DNA of 4,764 bases from a virus (Duplodnaviria > Heunggongvirae > Uroviricota > Caudoviricetes): IMG/VR virus record IMGVR_UViG_2663762945_000003, one strand, 5' to 3'. The notes beneath the pieces were generated by a model. That model saw only the letters and a program-made list of their open reading frames with translations. It did no database searches and had not been told where the DNA came from. Every line of letters begins with the position of its first letter. Positions within the stretch are counted from its first letter, which is position 1. Of the stretch, positions 1 through 4,764 are shown piece by piece. Both the position numbers and the translations under genes were made by a program.

Positions 1-849
1 CTTTTTGCAAGTTACTGTCAGCTTTCCATCTGATTTTTTAATGCCTTCAATTTCAACTTCTTCTGTAAGTTCTTTGTTGGAAAGTTTCTCACGTGGGTTT
101 CTTATCATTTCGGCAATATCACGCTTATCTAATTCGATCTTTGCCATACCATTAAACTCTACTCTGTCAGCATCTGAGACGCCTTTCAACACCCCAACCA
201 CAGCATTTGAAGTATGGGATTGAATTCCCTCTGAAATCTCCCTCGCAGCTGCTGTGGCAGTATGAGCAGAAAGAACTTCAACCATGCCATCTTTAAGCAG
301 TCTCATTTGCTCAGTTTGGCTGTTGGTGTCGTTGAGGCCTTCATCAATCTCAAGTTGCTTCATTTTTTCTATATGGCGATCTTTTTGTCTCGACTTTATC
401 AGCCAAGCCCCAGTAAGGATCAGCGATATGAGAACGAGACATATAGCTTTCTCTGTTCCAGTCATACCTTGTGTTGACCTCTCAAATGCAACACCAAATG
501 AATCAATTACATCCTTTATAGCAACAAGTAGGTCAGTACAGCCAGGCTCAACTTTAAAAATTATCTCAAGCTCTTTTCTATCACTGTCTTTCAAATGCTT
601 GAGATTATCCGTTCCTCGCCTTACAAGCATAAACGCTTTATAAAGTTCGGTCTGAAACTCGCACATACCTTGAGCTAAAGAGGACGGTATCGTCCCATTA
701 TACCGGTCTGGATCACCATAAATCTTGAAACTTACGTGGTTAACAAAATCAATTTTAATGTCATTGATAGATATTTGCTGACCTTTCTGAACTCTTTCTA
801 AAAACTCTGAAACGTCGCTTAATGATGAGATATCAATTTGATTGTCCAT
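1..849 (-). CDS. Hypothetical protein, N-terminal 283 codons (3' end lies beyond window start); non-Rex gene at the rexA/rexB position immediately downstream of cI; one predicted transmembrane helix
   Basis: Own translation of the reverse complement: ATG at 849..847, then 283 sense codons with no stop down to nt 1 (MDNQIDISSLSDVSEFLERVQKGQQISINDIKIDFVNHVSFKIYGDPDRYNGTIPSSLAQGMCEF...). It is absent from the supplied ORF track only because it has no in-window stop. Possible weak SD (GAGAA) 5-9 nt upstream of the ATG. Only 22 bp separate it from the cI stop, same strand, so it is probably co-transcribed with cI. Hydrophobic stretch AICLVLISLILTGAWLI (about residues 152-168) followed by a basic cluster KSRQKDRH. 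Does not match RexA as I recall it. The three + strand ORFs in the track (5..223, 262..477, 284..643) overlap it antisense and are taken as spurious. Confidence 0.75.
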   Translation of the reverse strand, partial: MDNQIDISSLSDVSEFLERVQKGQQISINDIKIDFVNHVSFKIYGDPDRYNGTIPSSLAQGMCEFQTELYKAFMLVRRGTDNLKHLKDSDRKELEIIFKVEPGCTDLLVAIKDVIDSFGVAFERSTQGMTGTEKAICLVLISLILTGAWLIKSRQKDRHIEKMKQLEIDEGLNDTNSQTEQMRLLKDGMVEVLSAHTATAAAREISEGIQSHTSNAVVGVLKGVSDADRVEFNGMAKIELDKRDIAEMIRNPREKLSNKELTEEVEIEGIKKSDGKLTVTCKK

Positions 850-871
850 ATCTTTTCTCAATGTTATTGTG

Positions 872-1588
<717 letters not shown>

Positions 1589-1591
1589 TTA

Positions 1592-1620
1592 AATCTATCA
1601 CCGCAAGGGATAAATATCTA
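1592..1620 (-). promoter_or_regulatory. PRM promoter (cI maintenance promoter); -10 TAGATT (1597..1592), -35 TAGATA (1620..1615)
   Basis: Hexamers read directly on the minus strand at the positions expected from lambda; the -10 lies 7 nt upstream of the cI ATG (leaderless mRNA). Confidence 0.8.
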
Positions 1621-1659
1621 ACACCGTGCGTGTTGACTGCTTTACCTCTAGCGGTGATA
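1596..1659. promoter_or_regulatory. Right operator OR: OR3 1596..1612 (TATCACCGCAAGGGATA), OR2 1619..1635 (TAACACCGTGCGTGTTG), OR1 1643..1659 (TACCTCTAGCGGTGATA)
   Basis: Three 17-bp partially palindromic sites between the divergent cI and cro starts. OR3 and OR2 match the lambda operators as I recall them; OR1 differs at one position (A at 1650 where lambda has G). Confidence 0.88.
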
Positions 1660-1661
1660 AT
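1633..1661 (+). promoter_or_regulatory. PR promoter; -35 TTGACT (1633..1638), 17-bp spacer, -10 GATAAT (1656..1661)
   Basis: Near-consensus sigma-70 hexamers with 17-bp spacing overlapping OR2/OR1, followed by SD AAGGAGG (1675..1681) and the cro ATG at 1686. Confidence 0.88.
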
Positions 1662-1676
1662 AATTGCATGTACTAA

Positions 1677-1886
<210 letters not shown>

Positions 1887-1893
1887 ATAACAC

Positions 1894-1925
1894 CGCTCTT
1901 ACACATCACAGCCCTGAAAAAGGGC
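1894..1925 (+). promoter_or_regulatory. nutR N-utilisation site: boxA CGCTCTTA (1894..1901) and boxB hairpin GCCCTGAAAAAGGGC (1911..1925); Rho-dependent tR1 region follows (about 1926..1990)
   Basis: boxB is a perfect 5-bp stem (GCCCT/AGGGC) around a GAAAA loop, as in lambda nutR; boxA lies 9 nt upstream. tR1 is inferred from position only, since Rho-dependent terminators lack a crisp motif. Confidence 0.8.
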
Positions 1926-1994
1926 ATCCAATTAAACCACACCTATGGTGTATGCATTTATTTTCATACATTCAATCAATTGTTATCTAAGGAA

Positions 1995-2027
1995 ATACTT
2001 ACATATGGTTCGTGCAAACAAACGCAA
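1995..2027 (-). promoter_or_regulatory. PRE (promoter for repressor establishment) with CII-binding direct repeats TTGC-N6-TTGC (2027..2024 and 2017..2014, minus strand) and -10 AAGTAT (2000..1995)
   Basis: Minus strand reads TTGCGTTTGTTTGC flanking the -35 position, the classic CII recognition tetrads, with a -10-like hexamer downstream; the element overlaps the 5' end of cII on the opposite strand as in lambda. Confidence 0.75.
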
Positions 2028-2298
2028 CGAGGCACTACGAATCGAGAGTGCGTTGCTTAACAAAATCGCAATGCTTGGAACTGAGAAGACAGCGGAAGCT
2101 GTGGGAGTTGATAAGTCGCAGATCAGCAGGTGGAAGAGGGACTGGATTCCAAAGTTCTCAATGCTGCTTGCTGTTCTTGAATGGGGGGTCGTTGACGACG
2201 ACATGGCTCGATTGGCGCGACAAGTTGCTGCGATTCTCACCAATAAAAAACGCCCGGCGGCAACCGAGCGTTCTGAACAAATCCAGATGGAGTTCTGA
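2005..2298 (+). CDS. cII: CII transcriptional activator, 97 aa
   Basis: Track ORF 1945..2298 contains MVRANKRNEALRIESALLNKIAMLGTEKTAEAVGVDKSQISRWKRDWIPKFSMLLAVLEWGVVDDDMARLARQVAAILTNKKRPAATERSEQIQMEF. The true start is the internal ATG at 2005, preceded by SD AAGGAAAT (1990..1997); the 20 extra upstream codons of the track ORF are read-through of the intergenic region. Confidence 0.95.
   Translation: MVRANKRNEALRIESALLNKIAMLGTEKTAEAVGVDKSQISRWKRDWIPKFSMLLAVLEWGVVDDDMARLARQVAAILTNKKRPAATERSEQIQMEF
2244..2270 (-). terminator. Intrinsic terminator of oop RNA (7-bp stem CGCUCGG/CCGGGCG with one G-U pair, 6-nt loop, then U6)
   Basis: Read on the minus strand: CGCTCGG-TTGCCG-CCGGGCG-TTTTTT (plus-strand A-run 2245..2250). 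It lies inside the 3' end of cII on the opposite strand, where the oop terminator is expected. Confidence 0.7.
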
Positions 2299-2321
2299 GG
2301 TCATTACTGGATCTATCAACA
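2244..2321 (-). ncRNA. oop: oop antisense RNA (about 77 nt), antisense to the 3' end of cII
   Basis: Bounded by the PO promoter (predicted start near 2321) and the intrinsic terminator at 2244..2270; length and position match lambda oop. Ends are inferred, not mapped. Confidence 0.6.
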
Positions 2322-2328
2322 GGAGTCA

Positions 2329-2357
2329 TTATGACAAATACAGCAAAAATACTCAAC
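2329..2357 (-). promoter_or_regulatory. PO promoter for oop; -35 TTGAGT (2357..2352), 17-bp spacer, -10 CATAAT (2334..2329)
   Basis: Hexamers read on the minus strand; the -10 overlaps the O start codon on the opposite strand. Confidence 0.6.
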
Positions 2358-3230
2358 TTCGGCAGAGGTAACTTTGCCGGACAGGAGCGTAATGTGGCAG
2401 ATCTCGATGATGGTTACGCCAGACTATCAAATATGCTGCTTGAGGCTTATTCGGGCGCAGATCTGACCAAGCGACAGTTTAAAGTGCTGCTTGCCATTCT
2501 GCGTAAAACCTATGGGTGGAATAAACCAATGGACAGAATCACCGATTCTCAACTTAGCGAGATTACAAAGTTACCCGTCAAACGGTGCAATGAAGCCAAG
2601 TTAGAACTCGTCAGAATGAATATTATCAAGCAGCAAGGCGGCATGTTTGGACCAAATAAAAACATCTCAGAATGGTGCATCCCTCAAAACGAGGGAAAAT
2701 CCCCTAAAACGAGGGATAAAACATCCCTCAAATTGGGGGATTGCTATCCCTCAAAACAGGGGGACACAAAAGACACTATTACAAAAGAAAAAAGAAAAGA
2801 TTATTCGTCAGAGAATTCTGGCGAATCCTCTGACCAGCCAGAAAACGACCTTTCTGTGGTGAAACCGGATGCTGCAATTCAGAGCGGCAGCAAGTGGGGG
2901 ACAGCAGAAGACCTGACCGCCGCAGAGTGGATGTTTGACATGGTGAAGACTATCGCACCATCAGCCAGAAAACCGAATTTTGCTGGGTGGGCTAACGATA
3001 TCCGCCTGATGCGTGAACGTGACGGACGTAACCACCGCGACATGTGCGTGCTGTTCCGCTGGGCATGCCAGGACAACTTCTGGTCCGGTAACGTGCTGAG
3101 CCCGGCCAAACTCCGCGATAAGTGGACCCAACTCGAAATCAACCGTAACAAGCAACAGGCAGGCGTGACAGCCAGCAAACCAAAACTCGACCTGACAAAC
3201 ACAGACTGGATTTACGGGGTGGATCTATGA
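2331..3230 (+). CDS. O: Replication initiator protein O, 299 aa
   Basis: ORF track protein MTNTAKILNFGRGNFAGQERNVADLDDGYARLSNMLLEAYSGADLTKRQFKVLLAILRKTYGWNKPMDRITDSQ... matches lambda O as recalled; it contains the origin iterons in its middle and overlaps P by ATGA. Confidence 0.96.
   Translation: MTNTAKILNFGRGNFAGQERNVADLDDGYARLSNMLLEAYSGADLTKRQFKVLLAILRKTYGWNKPMDRITDSQLSEITKLPVKRCNEAKLELVRMNIIKQQGGMFGPNKNISEWCIPQNEGKSPKTRDKTSLKLGDCYPSKQGDTKDTITKEKRKDYSSENSGESSDQPENDLSVVKPDAAIQSGSKWGTAEDLTAAEWMFDMVKTIAPSARKPNFAGWANDIRLMRERDGRNHRDMCVLFRWACQDNFWSGNVLSPAKLRDKWTQLEINRNKQQAGVTASKPKLDLTNTDWIYGVDL
2679..2806. repeat. ori-lambda: four about 18-bp iterons (2679..2696 ATCCCTCAAAACGAGGGA; 2699..2716 ATCCCCTAAAACGAGGGA; 2723..2740 ATCCCTCAAATTGGGGGA; 2746..2764 ATCCCTCAAAACAGGGGGA) followed by an AT-rich unwinding region (about 2766..2806)
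   Basis: Direct repeats with internal dyad symmetry (TCCCTC...GAGGGA) are visible in the sequence, followed by an A-rich tract (ACAAAAGAAAAAAGAAAAGATTATT), all inside the O reading frame as in lambda. Confidence 0.9.
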
Positions 3231-3928
3231 AAAACATCGCCGCACAGATGGTTAACTTTGACCGTGAGCAGATGCGTCGGATCGCCAACAACATGCCGGA
3301 ACAGTACGACGAAAAGCCGCAGGTACAGCAGGTAGCGCAGATCATCAACGGTGTGTTCAGCCAGTTACTGGCAACTTTCCCGGCGAGCCTGGCTAACCGT
3401 GACCAGAACGAAGTGAACGAAATCCGTCGCCAGTGGGTTCTGGCTTTTCGGGAAAACGGGATCACCACGATGGAACAGGTTAACGCAGGAATGCGCGTAG
3501 CCCGTCGGCAGAATCGACCATTTCTGCCATCACCCGGGCAGTTTGTTGCATGGTGCCGGGAAGAAGCATCCGTTACCGCCGGACTGCCAAACGTCAGCGA
3601 GCTGGTTGATATGGTTTACGAGTATTGCCGGAAGCGAGGCCTGTATCCGGATGCGGAGTCTTATCCGTGGAAATCAAACGCGCACTACTGGCTGGTTACC
3701 AACCTGTATCAGAACATGCGGGCCAATGCGCTTACTGATGCGGAATTACGCCGTAAGGCCGCAGATGAGCTTGTCCATATGACTGCGAGAATTAACCGTG
3801 GTGAGGCGATCCCTGAACCAGTAAAACAACTTCCTGTCATGGGCGGTAGACCTCTAAATCGTGCACAGGCTCTGGCGAAGATCGCAGAAATCAAAGCTAA
3901 GTTCGGACTGAAAGGAGCAAGTGTATGA
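3227..3928 (+). CDS. P: Replication protein P (DnaB helicase loader), 233 aa
   Basis: ORF track protein MKNIAAQMVNFDREQMRRIANNMPEQYDEKPQVQQVAQIINGVFSQLLATFPASLANRDQNEVNEIRRQW... matches lambda P as recalled; start overlaps the O stop (ATGA). Confidence 0.96.
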   Translation: MKNIAAQMVNFDREQMRRIANNMPEQYDEKPQVQQVAQIINGVFSQLLATFPASLANRDQNEVNEIRRQWVLAFRENGITTMEQVNAGMRVARRQNRPFLPSPGQFVAWCREEASVTAGLPNVSELVDMVYEYCRKRGLYPDAESYPWKSNAHYWLVTNLYQNMRANALTDAELRRKAADELVHMTARINRGEAIPEPVKQLPVMGGRPLNRAQALAKIAEIKAKFGLKGASV

Positions 3929-4215
3929 CGGGCAAAGAGGCAATTATTCATTACCTGGGGACGCATAATAGCTTCTGTGCGCCGGACGTTGCCGCGCTAA
4001 CAGGCGCAACAGTAACCAGCATAAATCAGGCCGCGGCTAAAATGGCACGGGCAGGTCTTCTGGTTATCGAAGGTAAGGTCTGGCGAACGGTGTATTACCG
4101 GTTTGCTACCAAGGAAGAACGGGAAGGAAAGATGAGCACGAACCTGATTTTTAAGGAGTGTCACCAGAGTGCCGCGATGAAACGGGTATTGGCAGTATAT
4201 GGAGTTAAAAGATGA
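3925..4215 (+). CDS. ren: Ren protein (Rex-exclusion endurance), 96 aa
   Basis: ORF track protein MTGKEAIIHYLGTHNSFCAPDVAALTGATVTSINQAAAKMARAGLLVIEGKVWRTVYYRFATKEEREGKMSTNLIFKECHQSAAMKRVLAVYGVKR matches lambda Ren as recalled; ATGA overlap with the P stop. Confidence 0.93.
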   Translation: MTGKEAIIHYLGTHNSFCAPDVAALTGATVTSINQAAAKMARAGLLVIEGKVWRTVYYRFATKEEREGKMSTNLIFKECHQSAAMKRVLAVYGVKR

Positions 4216-4240
4216 CCATCTACATCACTGAGCTAATAAC

Positions 4241-4273
4241 AGGCCTGCTGGTAATCGCAGGCCTTTTTATTTG
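4241..4273 (+). terminator. tR2-like intrinsic terminator (8-bp stem AGGCCTGC/GCAGGCCT, 8-nt loop, T-rich tail TTTTTATTT)
   Basis: Perfect inverted repeat 4241..4248 / 4257..4264 followed directly by a T-run, in the ren-ninB intergenic region where lambda tR2 lies. Confidence 0.75.
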
Positions 4274-4288
4274 GGGGAGAGGGAAGTC

Positions 4289-4764
4289 ATGAAAAAACTA
4301 ACCTTTGAAATTCGATCTCCAGCACATCAGCAAAACGCTATTCACGCAGTACAGCAAATCCTTCCAGACCCAACCAAACCAATCGTAGTAACCATTCAGG
4401 AACGCAACCGCAGCTTAGACCAAAACAGGAAGCTATGGGCCTGCTTAGGTGACGTCTCTCGTCAGGTTGAATGGCATGGTCGCTGGCTGGATGCAGAAAG
4501 CTGGAAGTGTGTGTTTACCGCAGCATTAAAGCAGCAGGATGTTGTTCCTAACCTTGCCCAGCAGGACAGCTACGTGCTGGCAGATGTGCTGGCAACGTTG
4601 CGCGCGGCAGGTGTTCCAGCGTTAACCGATGACAACTATGCGGTGATGAAGGTGGCTCGAATCGGCTGTGAATGCGGCGCGAATGTCTCGACATTTTCCT
4701 GCTTCAAGCTATTTGGGCCAGAGGGTGTTGGTGCAGTGGTCGGCGATGCTGATGTTATCAACCG
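4289..4764 (+). CDS. ninB: NinB (Orf-family recombination mediator) N-terminal about 90 codons, continuing in frame into non-lambda sequence; no stop before the window end (chimeric or fused ORF)
   Basis: Own translation from the ATG at 4289 (SD GAGGGAAG upstream): MKKLTFEIRSPAHQQNAIHAVQQILPDPTKPIVVTIQERNRSLDQNRKLWACLGDVSRQVEWHGRWLDAESWKCVFTAALKQQDVVPNLA, which matches lambda NinB as recalled. From about nt 4559 the frame continues QQDSYVLADVLATLRAAGVPALTDDNYAVMKVARIGCECGANVSTFSCFKLFGPEGVGAVVGDADVIN, which is not NinB-like. Lambda NinB is 146 aa and would have ended before the window end, yet this frame is open for 158+ codons. Not in the ORF track because it has no in-window stop. Confidence 0.7.
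   Translation, partial: MKKLTFEIRSPAHQQNAIHAVQQILPDPTKPIVVTIQERNRSLDQNRKLWACLGDVSRQVEWHGRWLDAESWKCVFTAALKQQDVVPNLAQQDSYVLADVLATLRAAGVPALTDDNYAVMKVARIGCECGANVSTFSCFKLFGPEGVGAVVGDADVIN

What the first reader, a model, noticed from the sequence alone, without database searches (positions are those of the whole stretch)
346..396. Single predicted transmembrane helix in the middle of the cI-linked protein
Residues about 152-168 (AICLVLISLILTGAWLI) form a roughly 17-residue uncharged hydrophobic stretch, flanked on the C-terminal side by a basic cluster (KSRQKDRHIEKMK) and then a charged, probably helical region. The N-terminal 150 residues are soluble-looking with no signal peptide. This resembles membrane-anchored abortive-infection or superinfection-exclusion effectors more than a cytoplasmic enzyme, and differs from both RexA (soluble) and RexB (polytopic).
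Basis: seen in the sequence. Interest (0 to 1): 0.5.

Follow-up and report, generated by a model that had tools for sequence, protein, structure and literature searches.

The report
Membrane-type helix in rex-slot prophage protein
In phage mEp332, the slot where lambda carries its rexAB exclusion genes holds a 345-residue protein from a widespread, uncharacterised phage family; it has one conserved membrane-type helix between a new N-terminal domain and a C-terminal OB-fold, which makes it a plausible but untested new prophage defence protein.

Summary
The hydrophobic run is real, but the coordinates are wrong. AICLVLISLILTGAWLI is residues 135-151, window 397-447 on the minus strand. The stated 346-396 encodes the basic and charged stretch that follows it. 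The window is the immunity region of lambdoid phage mEp332. The gene follows a 97%-lambda cI by 22 nt, replaces rexAB, and ends at the Timm terminator. The protein is 345 aa, of which 283 codons lie in the window.

It matches no Pfam, NCBIfam or PADLOC family, only PHROG 6191 (function unknown). An exhaustive profile search found 754 relatives at the 50%-identity cluster level. In 140 of 141 full-length relatives the most hydrophobic 19-mer sits at this same place. Those columns are under 1% charged and vary more in identity and size than core columns, which looks lipid-facing.

AlphaFold (pLDDT 89) gives a new alpha/beta N-domain, this helix, a helical region and a C-terminal OB-fold.

Topology is unresolved. 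A pTM of 0.84 and a recurrent Tyr swap between columns 70 and 217 suggest the two halves touch. Positive-inside counts across the family give no verdict.

Close relatives lie just downstream of diverse repressors in 26 of 28 loci. Distant relatives are moron-like inserts. The best reading is a lysogen-expressed, membrane-associated exclusion or defence protein. That function is inferred, not shown.

The parts
1..849 (-). First 283 codons of the 345-codon gene (mEp33204; ABO40672.1, XSB41013.1, WP_001507092.1). The last 62 codons and the Timm terminator lie beyond the left end of the window.
   Evidence: Translation. 100% match to EF120456 and a match to PV340541. PHROG 6191 at E=6e-116. GC 38.5-39.5% against 45% for cI.
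397..447 (-). The hydrophobic helix itself, residues 135-151 (AICLVLISLILTGAWLI).
   Evidence: Family-wide hydrophobicity. Freer identity and side-chain volume than core columns. AF2 helix 131-148 with pLDDT 84-95.
346..396 (-). The basic cluster 152-164 is at 358-396. This is a charged helix of low model confidence that follows the hydrophobic helix.
   Evidence: pLDDT 54-58 for residues 151-170. The basic character is not conserved in distant relatives.
448..468 (-). Conserved motif G-M-T-G-T-E-K (residues 128-134) just before the helix. Met129 (codon 463-465) is 97% conserved in the family, and Lys134 57%.
478..483 (-). GAGAGG, a Shine-Dalgarno-like run 12 nt upstream of the Met129 codon. 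It marks a possible internal start, which is speculative.
   Evidence: Predicted anti-SD duplex of -6.5 kcal/mol, in the top 2.9% of positions in the gene and stronger than at the annotated start (-2.7). Similar runs occur in 10 of 15 homologous genes.
469..849 (-). N-terminal alpha/beta domain, residues 1-127. It is the most conserved part of the family (G45, Q66, Y78, L86, G103, S/C104). No fold match was seen, and it has no signal peptide.
   Evidence: AF2 pLDDT mostly 87-95, dipping to 78 for residues 101-110. Conservation. No Pfam or PDB sequence match.
100..342 (-). Post-helix region: helices 170-194 and 200-223, then a small beta-hairpin and helix at 229-250.
   Evidence: AF2 secondary structure. 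Tyr swap between column 217 and column 70.
1..81 (-). Start of the C-terminal OB-fold (residues 257-283 of 257-339). The rest lies outside the window.
850..871 (-). 22-nt spacer between the cI stop codon and the gene's ATG, with a weak GAG ribosome-binding motif. No promoter-like or terminator-like site was found here.
   Evidence: Sequence. Scan.
872..1585 (-). The cI repressor, 97% identical to lambda CI. It is the upstream gene of the same operon.
   Evidence: Annotation.
1592..1620 (-). pRM, with oR3 at 1596-1612. This is the lysogenic promoter expected to drive cI and the gene.
   Evidence: Annotation of EF120456 mapped to the window by subtracting 1946 from EF coordinates. The sequence was read.

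Best explanation
The segment is a genuine hydrophobic helix conserved across the family (residues 135-151). It most likely ties the protein to the inner membrane.

The protein is the product of a cassette gene that replaces rexAB in a lambda-immunity phage. It is read from the same transcript as cI (pRM or pRE, then cI, a 22-nt gap, the gene, then Timm), so it should be made in lysogens. It consists of a conserved new N-terminal alpha/beta domain, the hydrophobic helix, a helical region and a more variable C-terminal OB-fold.

The most likely job is protecting the lysogen against other phages, by superinfection exclusion or abortive infection. In this model the OB-fold or helical part acts as a binding or sensing module and the helix provides membrane localisation or membrane action.

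Shown: the helix and its conservation, the operon position, the family size, the domain layout, and the absence of known families.

Inferred: membrane association (about 0.75), expression in lysogens, and a defence function (about 0.5).

Not resolved: topology. A bitopic N-in/C-out arrangement gets about 0.35. Both halves on one side, with a monotopic or latent helix, gets about 0.4.
For: Helix:
- KD19 of 2.09, Eisenberg mean hydrophobicity 0.85 and moment 0.15.
- Same position in 140 of 141 relatives, and KD19 of at least 1.6 in 102 of 141.
- Under 1% charged residues in columns 135-151 of 52 relatives.
- Column entropy of 2.75 against 2.16 bits, and side-chain volume SD of 34 against 23 cubic angstroms, compared with 65 other hydrophobic columns (p about 4e-4). 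This fits lipid-facing residues, not tightly packed ones.
- Conserved Gly147, aromatic residues at 149 and 154, and Lys134 at the two ends.

Operon:
- 22-nt gap after cI with no promoter-like or terminator-like site between them.
- A strong terminator hairpin about 20 nt after the stop codon (-20.4 kcal/mol, z = -2.9), annotated as Timm.

Slot:
- 26 of 28 related loci with enough upstream DNA carry an S24-type repressor ORF just upstream on the same strand. The repressors best match seven different reference repressors.
- A Marinobacter relative follows CI plus a WYL-domain gene, and another relative sits beside GmrSD.
- Distant members are single-gene inserts in tail or baseplate modules or at prophage ends.
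- A CI protein with the same RefSeq accession is followed by other cargo in another E. coli genome, and the mosaic joint lies at the cI stop.
- GC is low, 38.5%.

Precedent: the cI-N region is a known mosaic hotspot that holds RexAB and BstA (PMC8585504).

No enzyme-like conserved polar set is present.
Against: - No experiment or annotation links any family member to exclusion or defence. There are no PADLOC hits for the query or for 52 relatives beyond weak single hits.
- pTM of 0.84 and the Tyr swap between columns 70 and 217 suggest the N and C parts pack together, which does not fit a simple transmembrane span.
- Positive-inside counts are neutral across the family.
- With a position-independent Hessa scale, the best 19-mer has a median of +2.3 kcal/mol, so some members are only marginally hydrophobic.
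- The rex slot also holds genes that act on the lysis-lysogeny switch, such as 434 hex (PMC3564112) and RexA (bioRxiv 10.1101/2021.04.19.439022). Both papers were seen only as abstracts. Position alone therefore does not prove defence.
Confidence: 0.5

Rival explanations
1. The helix is sequestered in a compact soluble fold. In this view the hydrophobic helix is packed against the N-domain helix 56-78 and helices 170-223. It would then be either simply the core of the fold or a latent insertion helix released on a trigger, as in colicin-type or Bcl-2-type pore formers. The resting protein would be cytoplasmic.
For: pTM of 0.84 with pLDDT 84-95 on the helix is too high for two domains held apart by a membrane; that reading of pTM is my inference. 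The Tyr swap between column 70 and column 217 gives Fisher p = 5e-9 and appears in 14 of 45 clades. There is no positive-inside bias. Many members have only marginal predicted insertion energy.
Against: The columns of the helix vary more in identity and side-chain volume than the 65 other hydrophobic columns, the opposite of a tightly packed core. All faces are hydrophobic, with moment 0.15. Aromatic, Gly and Lys residues sit at the two ends, as at membrane interfaces. Neither the coordinates nor the PAE matrix could be inspected. My mean-field DCA failed to recover the known OB strand pairs, so it gives no support.
Confidence: 0.25
2. The protein is membrane-anchored but is not a defence protein. 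It could act on the prophage's own switch, as 434 Hex or RexA do, or alter host envelope physiology or virulence as a lysogenic-conversion gene.
For: The same slot holds Hex and RexA, which act on repressor cleavage or the switch (abstracts of PMC3564112 and bioRxiv 10.1101/2021.04.19.439022, listed). The UTI89 homologue appeared among prophage genes induced in bladder cells (PMC5404293). There are no defence-family hits.
Against: Family members also occur as inserts in tail and baseplate modules and at prophage ends, in phages with unrelated repressors and lifestyles. That fits a portable host-protecting cargo gene better than a switch component. The C-terminal half varies more than the N-terminal domain, as expected of a module that tracks changing targets.
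Confidence: 0.2
3. It is a type II secretion GspM-like protein, as annotated in PV340541 ('T2SS GspM containing protein').
For: Only the database label and the presence of one hydrophobic helix.
Confidence: 0.02
4. It is a chance hydrophobic stretch with no special role.
For: 5.3% of composition shuffles of the single sequence reach the same KD maximum.
Against: The position is conserved in 140 of 141 relatives with a median pairwise identity of 20%.
Confidence: 0.01

Closest known systems
Lambda RexA/RexB (abortive infection, cI-rexA-rexB operon)
   Same: Same genomic slot and the same transcription logic: downstream of a 97%-identical cI, ending at Timm, and so expected in lysogens. A membrane component is involved in both.
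   Different: No sequence similarity to either protein (E above 1). One gene instead of two. One hydrophobic helix instead of RexB's several membrane segments (RexB from general knowledge). An OB-fold is present. No exclusion phenotype is known.
BstA of Salmonella prophage BTP1 (single-gene abortive infection downstream of cI)
   Same: A single gene of about 300-350 aa immediately downstream of prophage repressors of varied type, with conserved synteny across genera (PMC8585504; here).
   Different: No PADLOC hit. Here there is a hydrophobic helix and an OB-fold. BstA is described as localising to phage DNA replication sites (PMC8585504 abstract, seen) and, from memory, carries a KilA-N-type domain.
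Inner-membrane superinfection-exclusion proteins (P22 SieA, HK97 gp15, lactococcal Sie2009, T4 Imm)
   Same: Prophage- or phage-expressed membrane proteins that protect the cell. SieA is an inner-membrane protein that blocks DNA entry (PMC10883804 abstract).
   Different: Those proteins are smaller, with N-terminal or multiple membrane segments (from memory). The only PHROG matched here is 6191. Here a 134-residue domain precedes the helix and about 190 residues follow it.
Membrane-anchored or periplasmic OB-fold proteins (CcmE, YgiW/BOF family, SilF/CusF, AB5 toxin B subunits) and cytoplasmic OB-folds (SSB, RPA, PriB, AsnRS anticodon domain)
   Different: Sequence identity is 2-20%, with no sequence-level match. 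The fold does not say which compartment or which ligand (nucleic acid, sugar, metal or protein).
P22/lambda SieB with its in-frame internal product Esc (recalled from memory, not checked here)
   Same: A possible in-frame internal start at the 97%-conserved Met129, preceded by a Shine-Dalgarno-like run. It would yield a shorter isoform from an exclusion-type gene.
   Different: This is purely a lead. The run is missing in 5 of 15 genes, it may follow from the conserved Lys/Gly codons, and there is no protein evidence.

Membership tests
PHROG 6191 (phage protein family, unknown function) | Full-length match to the family profile | tested here: met
   E=6e-116 over residues 1-344. All 52 diverse relatives match the same profile.
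Single-pass (bitopic) inner-membrane proteins | One segment of about 17-23 uncharged residues with hydrophobicity above accepted thresholds | tested here: met
   17 uncharged residues; KD19 of 2.09; Eisenberg mean hydrophobicity 0.85 and moment 0.15. Median uncharged core of 19 residues across 140 relatives.
Single-pass (bitopic) inner-membrane proteins | Flanking charge bias (positive-inside) that defines an orientation | tested here: inconclusive
   The query has 2 K/R on the N flank and 6 on the C flank. Family means are 2.5 and 2.8, with N>C in 54 sequences and N<C in 57.
Single-pass (bitopic) inner-membrane proteins | Domains before and after the helix lie on opposite sides and do not contact each other | tested here: inconclusive
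   pTM of 0.84 and the Tyr swap between columns 70 and 217 argue for contact. Cys density of 0.78 per 100 residues before the helix against 0.22 after it weakly argues for different compartments.
Single-pass (bitopic) inner-membrane proteins | Experimental membrane integration and topology | not testable with these tools
   Needs fractionation and PhoA, LacZ or GFP fusions.
Lambda RexA / RexB | Sequence homology to RexA or RexB | tested here: not met
   BLASTP E=1.1 for RexA and E=32 for RexB. No PADLOC hit.
Lambda RexA / RexB | Position downstream of cI in the pRM transcript | tested here: met
GspM (type II secretion protein M) | Match to the T2SSM profiles, a ferredoxin-like periplasmic domain, an N-terminal anchor, and a gsp operon context | tested here: not met
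Known anti-phage defence families (PADLOC-DB 2.0.0) | Significant match to any defence protein model | tested here: not met
   No hit for the query at E up to 10. Among 52 relatives only three single weak hits, the best at E=5e-4.
OB-fold superfamily (structural) | Five-stranded beta-barrel with a helix between strands 3 and 4 | tested here: met
Prophage morons / lysogeny-expressed accessory genes | Cassette-like presence or absence at the same site, atypical base composition, own or shared lysogenic promoter and terminator | tested here: met
   Present in 18 of 5426 E. coli genomes. A CI with the same accession is followed by other cargo elsewhere. Mosaic joint at about window 875. GC of 38.5% against 45-49%. 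Terminator present. Expression itself was not tested.

The most novel reading that the evidence does not exclude
The gene would be a self-contained, single-gene replacement for RexAB that works through a conformational or isoform switch. The full-length protein would keep its hydrophobic helix sequestered against the N-terminal domain. On sensing an infecting phage, the helix would be released into the membrane. Alternatively, the same result would come from translation starting at the 97%-conserved Met129, which would give a 217-residue product carrying the helix at its N-terminus and the OB-fold. Either route would cause exclusion or abortive infection. This would be a new class of latent membrane effector, spread through proteobacterial phages (754 family clusters at 50% identity).
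Probability: 0.12. Interest if true: 0.8.

Novelty: new variant of a known kind. Interest (0 to 1): 0.45.

Why it matters
The stretch between cI and N in lambdoid phages is where RexAB, the oldest known abortive-infection system, and BstA were found. This protein fills the same slot behind a repressor that is essentially lambda's own, so it can be tested directly in lambda genetics by swapping rexAB for it.

Its family is large and entirely unannotated. It has 754 clusters at 50% identity, spans gamma- and beta-proteobacteria, and has no Pfam entry. It keeps its link to repressors across many immunity types.

If it proves to be a defence or exclusion protein, it would add a new single-gene family with an unusual layout: a new domain, one hydrophobic helix and an OB-fold. 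It would also give function to hundreds of 'hypothetical' prophage genes. The unresolved question of whether the helix spans the membrane or is held in reserve is of mechanistic interest in its own right.

Tried and rejected
- Pfam, NCBIfam and PADLOC scans of the query, and Pfam and PADLOC scans of 52 relatives, found nothing.
- PDB sequence searches with two profiles gave only noise, including membrane-segment look-alikes such as Tom20 and MotB at E of 0.2-0.5.
- The Tai (PMC11364771) and HepS (PMC13043305) papers were checked as possible identities. Neither described a membrane protein or this cI-linked slot, so I did not pursue them.
- The second homologous-protein search, with a 52-sequence profile, was limited by its candidate cap and added few proteins. 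The alignment was too diverse for the search for related loci. The scan with Aeromonas protein P0016 found nothing.
- My mean-field DCA on 143 sequences was mostly noise: the domain-pair distribution of top pairs matched chance, and the known OB strand pairs were not recovered. Only the Tyr swap between columns 70 and 217 was kept as a lead.
- The count of Cys residues after the helix showed no even-number bias (1 Cys in 33 sequences, 2 in 9), so only the lower density is cited, and only weakly.
- Scans of longer family members for fused domains that might reveal the compartment found none.
- Literature searches for mEp332, UTI89_C5141, phrog_6191 and accession numbers found no functional study. 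Degnan et al. 2007 is not held in the library.

Full report
**Where the window comes from.** Bases 1-4558 match the immunity and replication region of lambdoid phage mEp332. The first 900 bases are 100% identical to EF120456, and 1-4558 are 99.7% identical to PV340541. The gene order on the window is: the target gene (minus strand, ATG at 849, running off the left end), cI (872-1585, minus), cro, cII, O, P, ren, and the start of ninB. The CI protein is 97% identical to lambda CI, and mEp332 is reported to share lambda's immunity group (PMC3442831). In lambda the stretch after cI holds rexA and rexB. Here it holds one 1038-nt gene (mEp33204; ABO40672.1 'conserved hypothetical protein'; XSB41013.1 'T2SS GspM containing protein'; WP_001507092.1 'hypothetical protein').

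**Checking the observation.** Translation from 849 downward gives 283 codons in the window, and the full protein is 345 aa. The run AICLVLISLILTGAWLI is present, but at residues 135-151, window 397-447.
- The Kyte-Doolittle 19-residue maximum is 2.09, and the second-best segment scores 1.29.
- Eisenberg mean hydrophobicity is 0.85 with moment 0.15. The other predicted helices have a mean near 0 and moments of 0.23-0.55.
- From this one sequence the case is not overwhelming: 5.3% of composition shuffles reach the same maximum.

**Family and conservation.** The word-indexed search found only 11 clusters. The exhaustive profile search found 754 representatives at 50% identity (327 at E of 1e-10 or better), nearly all 310-360 aa and matched end to end.
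- In 140 of 141 full-length members the most hydrophobic 19-mer lies at the same place. KD19 is at least 1.6 in 102 of them.
- In a 52-sequence alignment with about 20% median identity, columns 135-151 hold under 1% charged residues against 27% overall, and every column from 135 to 145 has a mean KD above 2.
- These columns vary more than the other 65 hydrophobic columns. Entropy is 2.75 against 2.16 bits, and side-chain volume SD is 34 against 23 cubic angstroms (both p about 4e-4). That is what lipid-facing positions look like, not tightly packed core positions.
- The ends are marked by a conserved G-M-(T/S)-G-x-x-K motif (Met129 97%, Lys134 57%) on one side, and by Gly147 (77%) plus aromatic residues at 149 and 154 on the other.

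**Structure.** With eight sequences AlphaFold gave a weak model (pLDDT 66.5). With 52 sequences it gave pLDDT 89.2 and pTM 0.84. The layout is:
- an alpha/beta N-domain at residues 1-125;
- helix 131-148;
- a low-confidence charged helix at 150-165;
- helices 170-194 and 200-223;
- a small hairpin plus helix at 229-250;
- a beta-beta-beta-alpha-beta-beta barrel at 257-339.

**Topology is not settled.** A 134-residue N-domain without a signal peptide would normally stay in the cytoplasm, which would put the C-terminal half outside. Cysteine is 3.6-fold rarer after the helix than before it, which weakly fits that arrangement. Three results point the other way:
- Flank charges give no orientation across the family: 2.5 against 2.8 K+R. 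In the query they point the opposite way.
- A pTM of 0.84 is, in my judgement, too high unless the N and C parts are placed confidently against each other.
- Tyr alternates between column 70 (N-domain helix) and column 217 (helix after the hydrophobic segment). The counts are 73 Y/x, 35 x/Y, 10 Y/Y and 25 x/x, with Fisher p = 5e-9. The x/Y state appears in 14 of 45 clades.

My DCA was otherwise noise and is not used. I therefore keep three states open: a bitopic span, a monotopic anchor with both halves cytoplasmic, and a sequestered helix that may be released.

**Genomic logic.** The gene starts 22 nt after the cI stop codon, with only a weak ribosome-binding motif and no promoter-like or terminator-like site between them. 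A strong hairpin terminator follows its stop codon and is annotated as Timm. Expression with cI in lysogens is thus expected, not shown.
- GC is 38.5% against 45% for cI and 49% further right.
- Only 18 of 5426 complete E. coli genomes carry the gene.
- Many genomes share window 876-4558 at 99.3% identity but not 1-875. One of them has a CI with the same protein accession followed by two other small ORFs and IS1.
- Among relatives of at least 34% identity, 26 of 28 loci with enough upstream DNA have an S24-type repressor ORF just upstream on the same strand. The repressors best match seven different reference repressors and range from 149 to 262 aa.
- One of the two exceptions, L049, follows a short HTH_3 regulator on the same strand, with a divergent YdaT-like gene beside it.
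- A Marinobacter relative follows CI and a WYL-domain gene, and another relative lies between a lysis gene and GmrSD.
- Members of about 21-28% identity are single-gene inserts between tail genes K and I, in a myovirus baseplate cluster, or at a prophage edge; a 25%-identical copy lies near the end of the Pasteurella phage Pmp14 genome.
- Named hosts are gamma- and beta-proteobacteria, and every source name is 'hypothetical protein'.

**Interpretation.** The cI-N interval is a recognised mosaic hotspot that holds RexAB and BstA (PMC8585504). A portable, low-GC, single-gene cassette that keeps company with repressors and other cargo is most simply a lysogen-protecting gene. The variable OB-fold half would be the natural recognition module, and the helix the means of membrane localisation or action. 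This reading is an inference from context, and I put it at about 0.5. The same slot also holds genes that tune the switch (Hex and RexA, seen as abstracts), so a regulatory or lysogenic-conversion role is the main functional rival.

**Side lead.** Met129 is 97% conserved five residues before the helix. A purine-rich Shine-Dalgarno-like run lies 9-12 nt upstream in 10 of 15 genes. In the query it is -6.5 kcal/mol, in the top 3% of positions and stronger than at the annotated start. Three database representatives begin at or within four residues of this Met. It may mark an internal start, as for sieB/esc (from memory), or it may simply follow from the conserved Lys/Gly codons.

**Verdict.** The protein belongs to a large, unannotated phage family with an architecture not seen in known defence proteins. 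Its function and topology remain to be tested.

Noticed in passing
window 4559-4764: The last 206 bases are a fragment of the E. coli core gene yhfS (100% identity in many genomes), joined in the middle of phage ninB. The match to mEp332 stops at 4558. This is a chimeric contig or a deletion junction and is unrelated to the finding.
   Followed up: partly
window 463-465 and 478-483 (minus strand): Met129 is 97% conserved in the family and sits five residues before the hydrophobic helix. A Shine-Dalgarno-like GAGAGG lies 12 nt upstream, and similar runs occur in 10 of 15 homologous genes. This could be an in-frame internal start giving a 217-aa isoform.
   Followed up: partly
window about 875; L027 2602-3446: There is a mosaic joint at the cI stop codon. 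Many E. coli prophages share 876-4558 at 99.3% identity but not 1-875. In strain CFSAN064035 a CI with the same protein accession (WP_001274762.1) is followed by two other small hypothetical ORFs and IS1.
   Followed up: partly
P0010 (E. coli, 245 aa, on 53 contigs): This is an internally deleted allele of a 41%-identical relative. It lacks roughly residues 72-166, including the hydrophobic helix, and is probably a decayed copy.
   Followed up: no
L003 5566-5907; L062 2977-3909; L060 7171-8277: Extra genes accompany some relatives: a DUF3024 gene between the repressor and the gene in Morganella, a WYL-domain gene in the same position in a Marinobacter prophage, and a GmrSD restriction gene near another relative at a prophage end.
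   Followed up: no
window 1945-2298 versus 2005-2298: The two public records disagree on the cII start. PV340541 annotates a longer ORF starting at window 1945, and EF120456 annotates the 97-aa lambda-like cII starting at 2005.
   Followed up: no
P0069, P0140, P0152 (412-413 aa relatives): Three relatives carry an insert of about 70 residues, acidic and rich in Pro and Asn, between the post-helix helices and the OB-fold. No known domain was found in it.
   Followed up: no
L002 433-984 (outside the window, left of N): mEp332 also carries sieB and ral in the pL operon, so the prophage has other exclusion-type genes besides the rex-slot gene.
   Followed up: no
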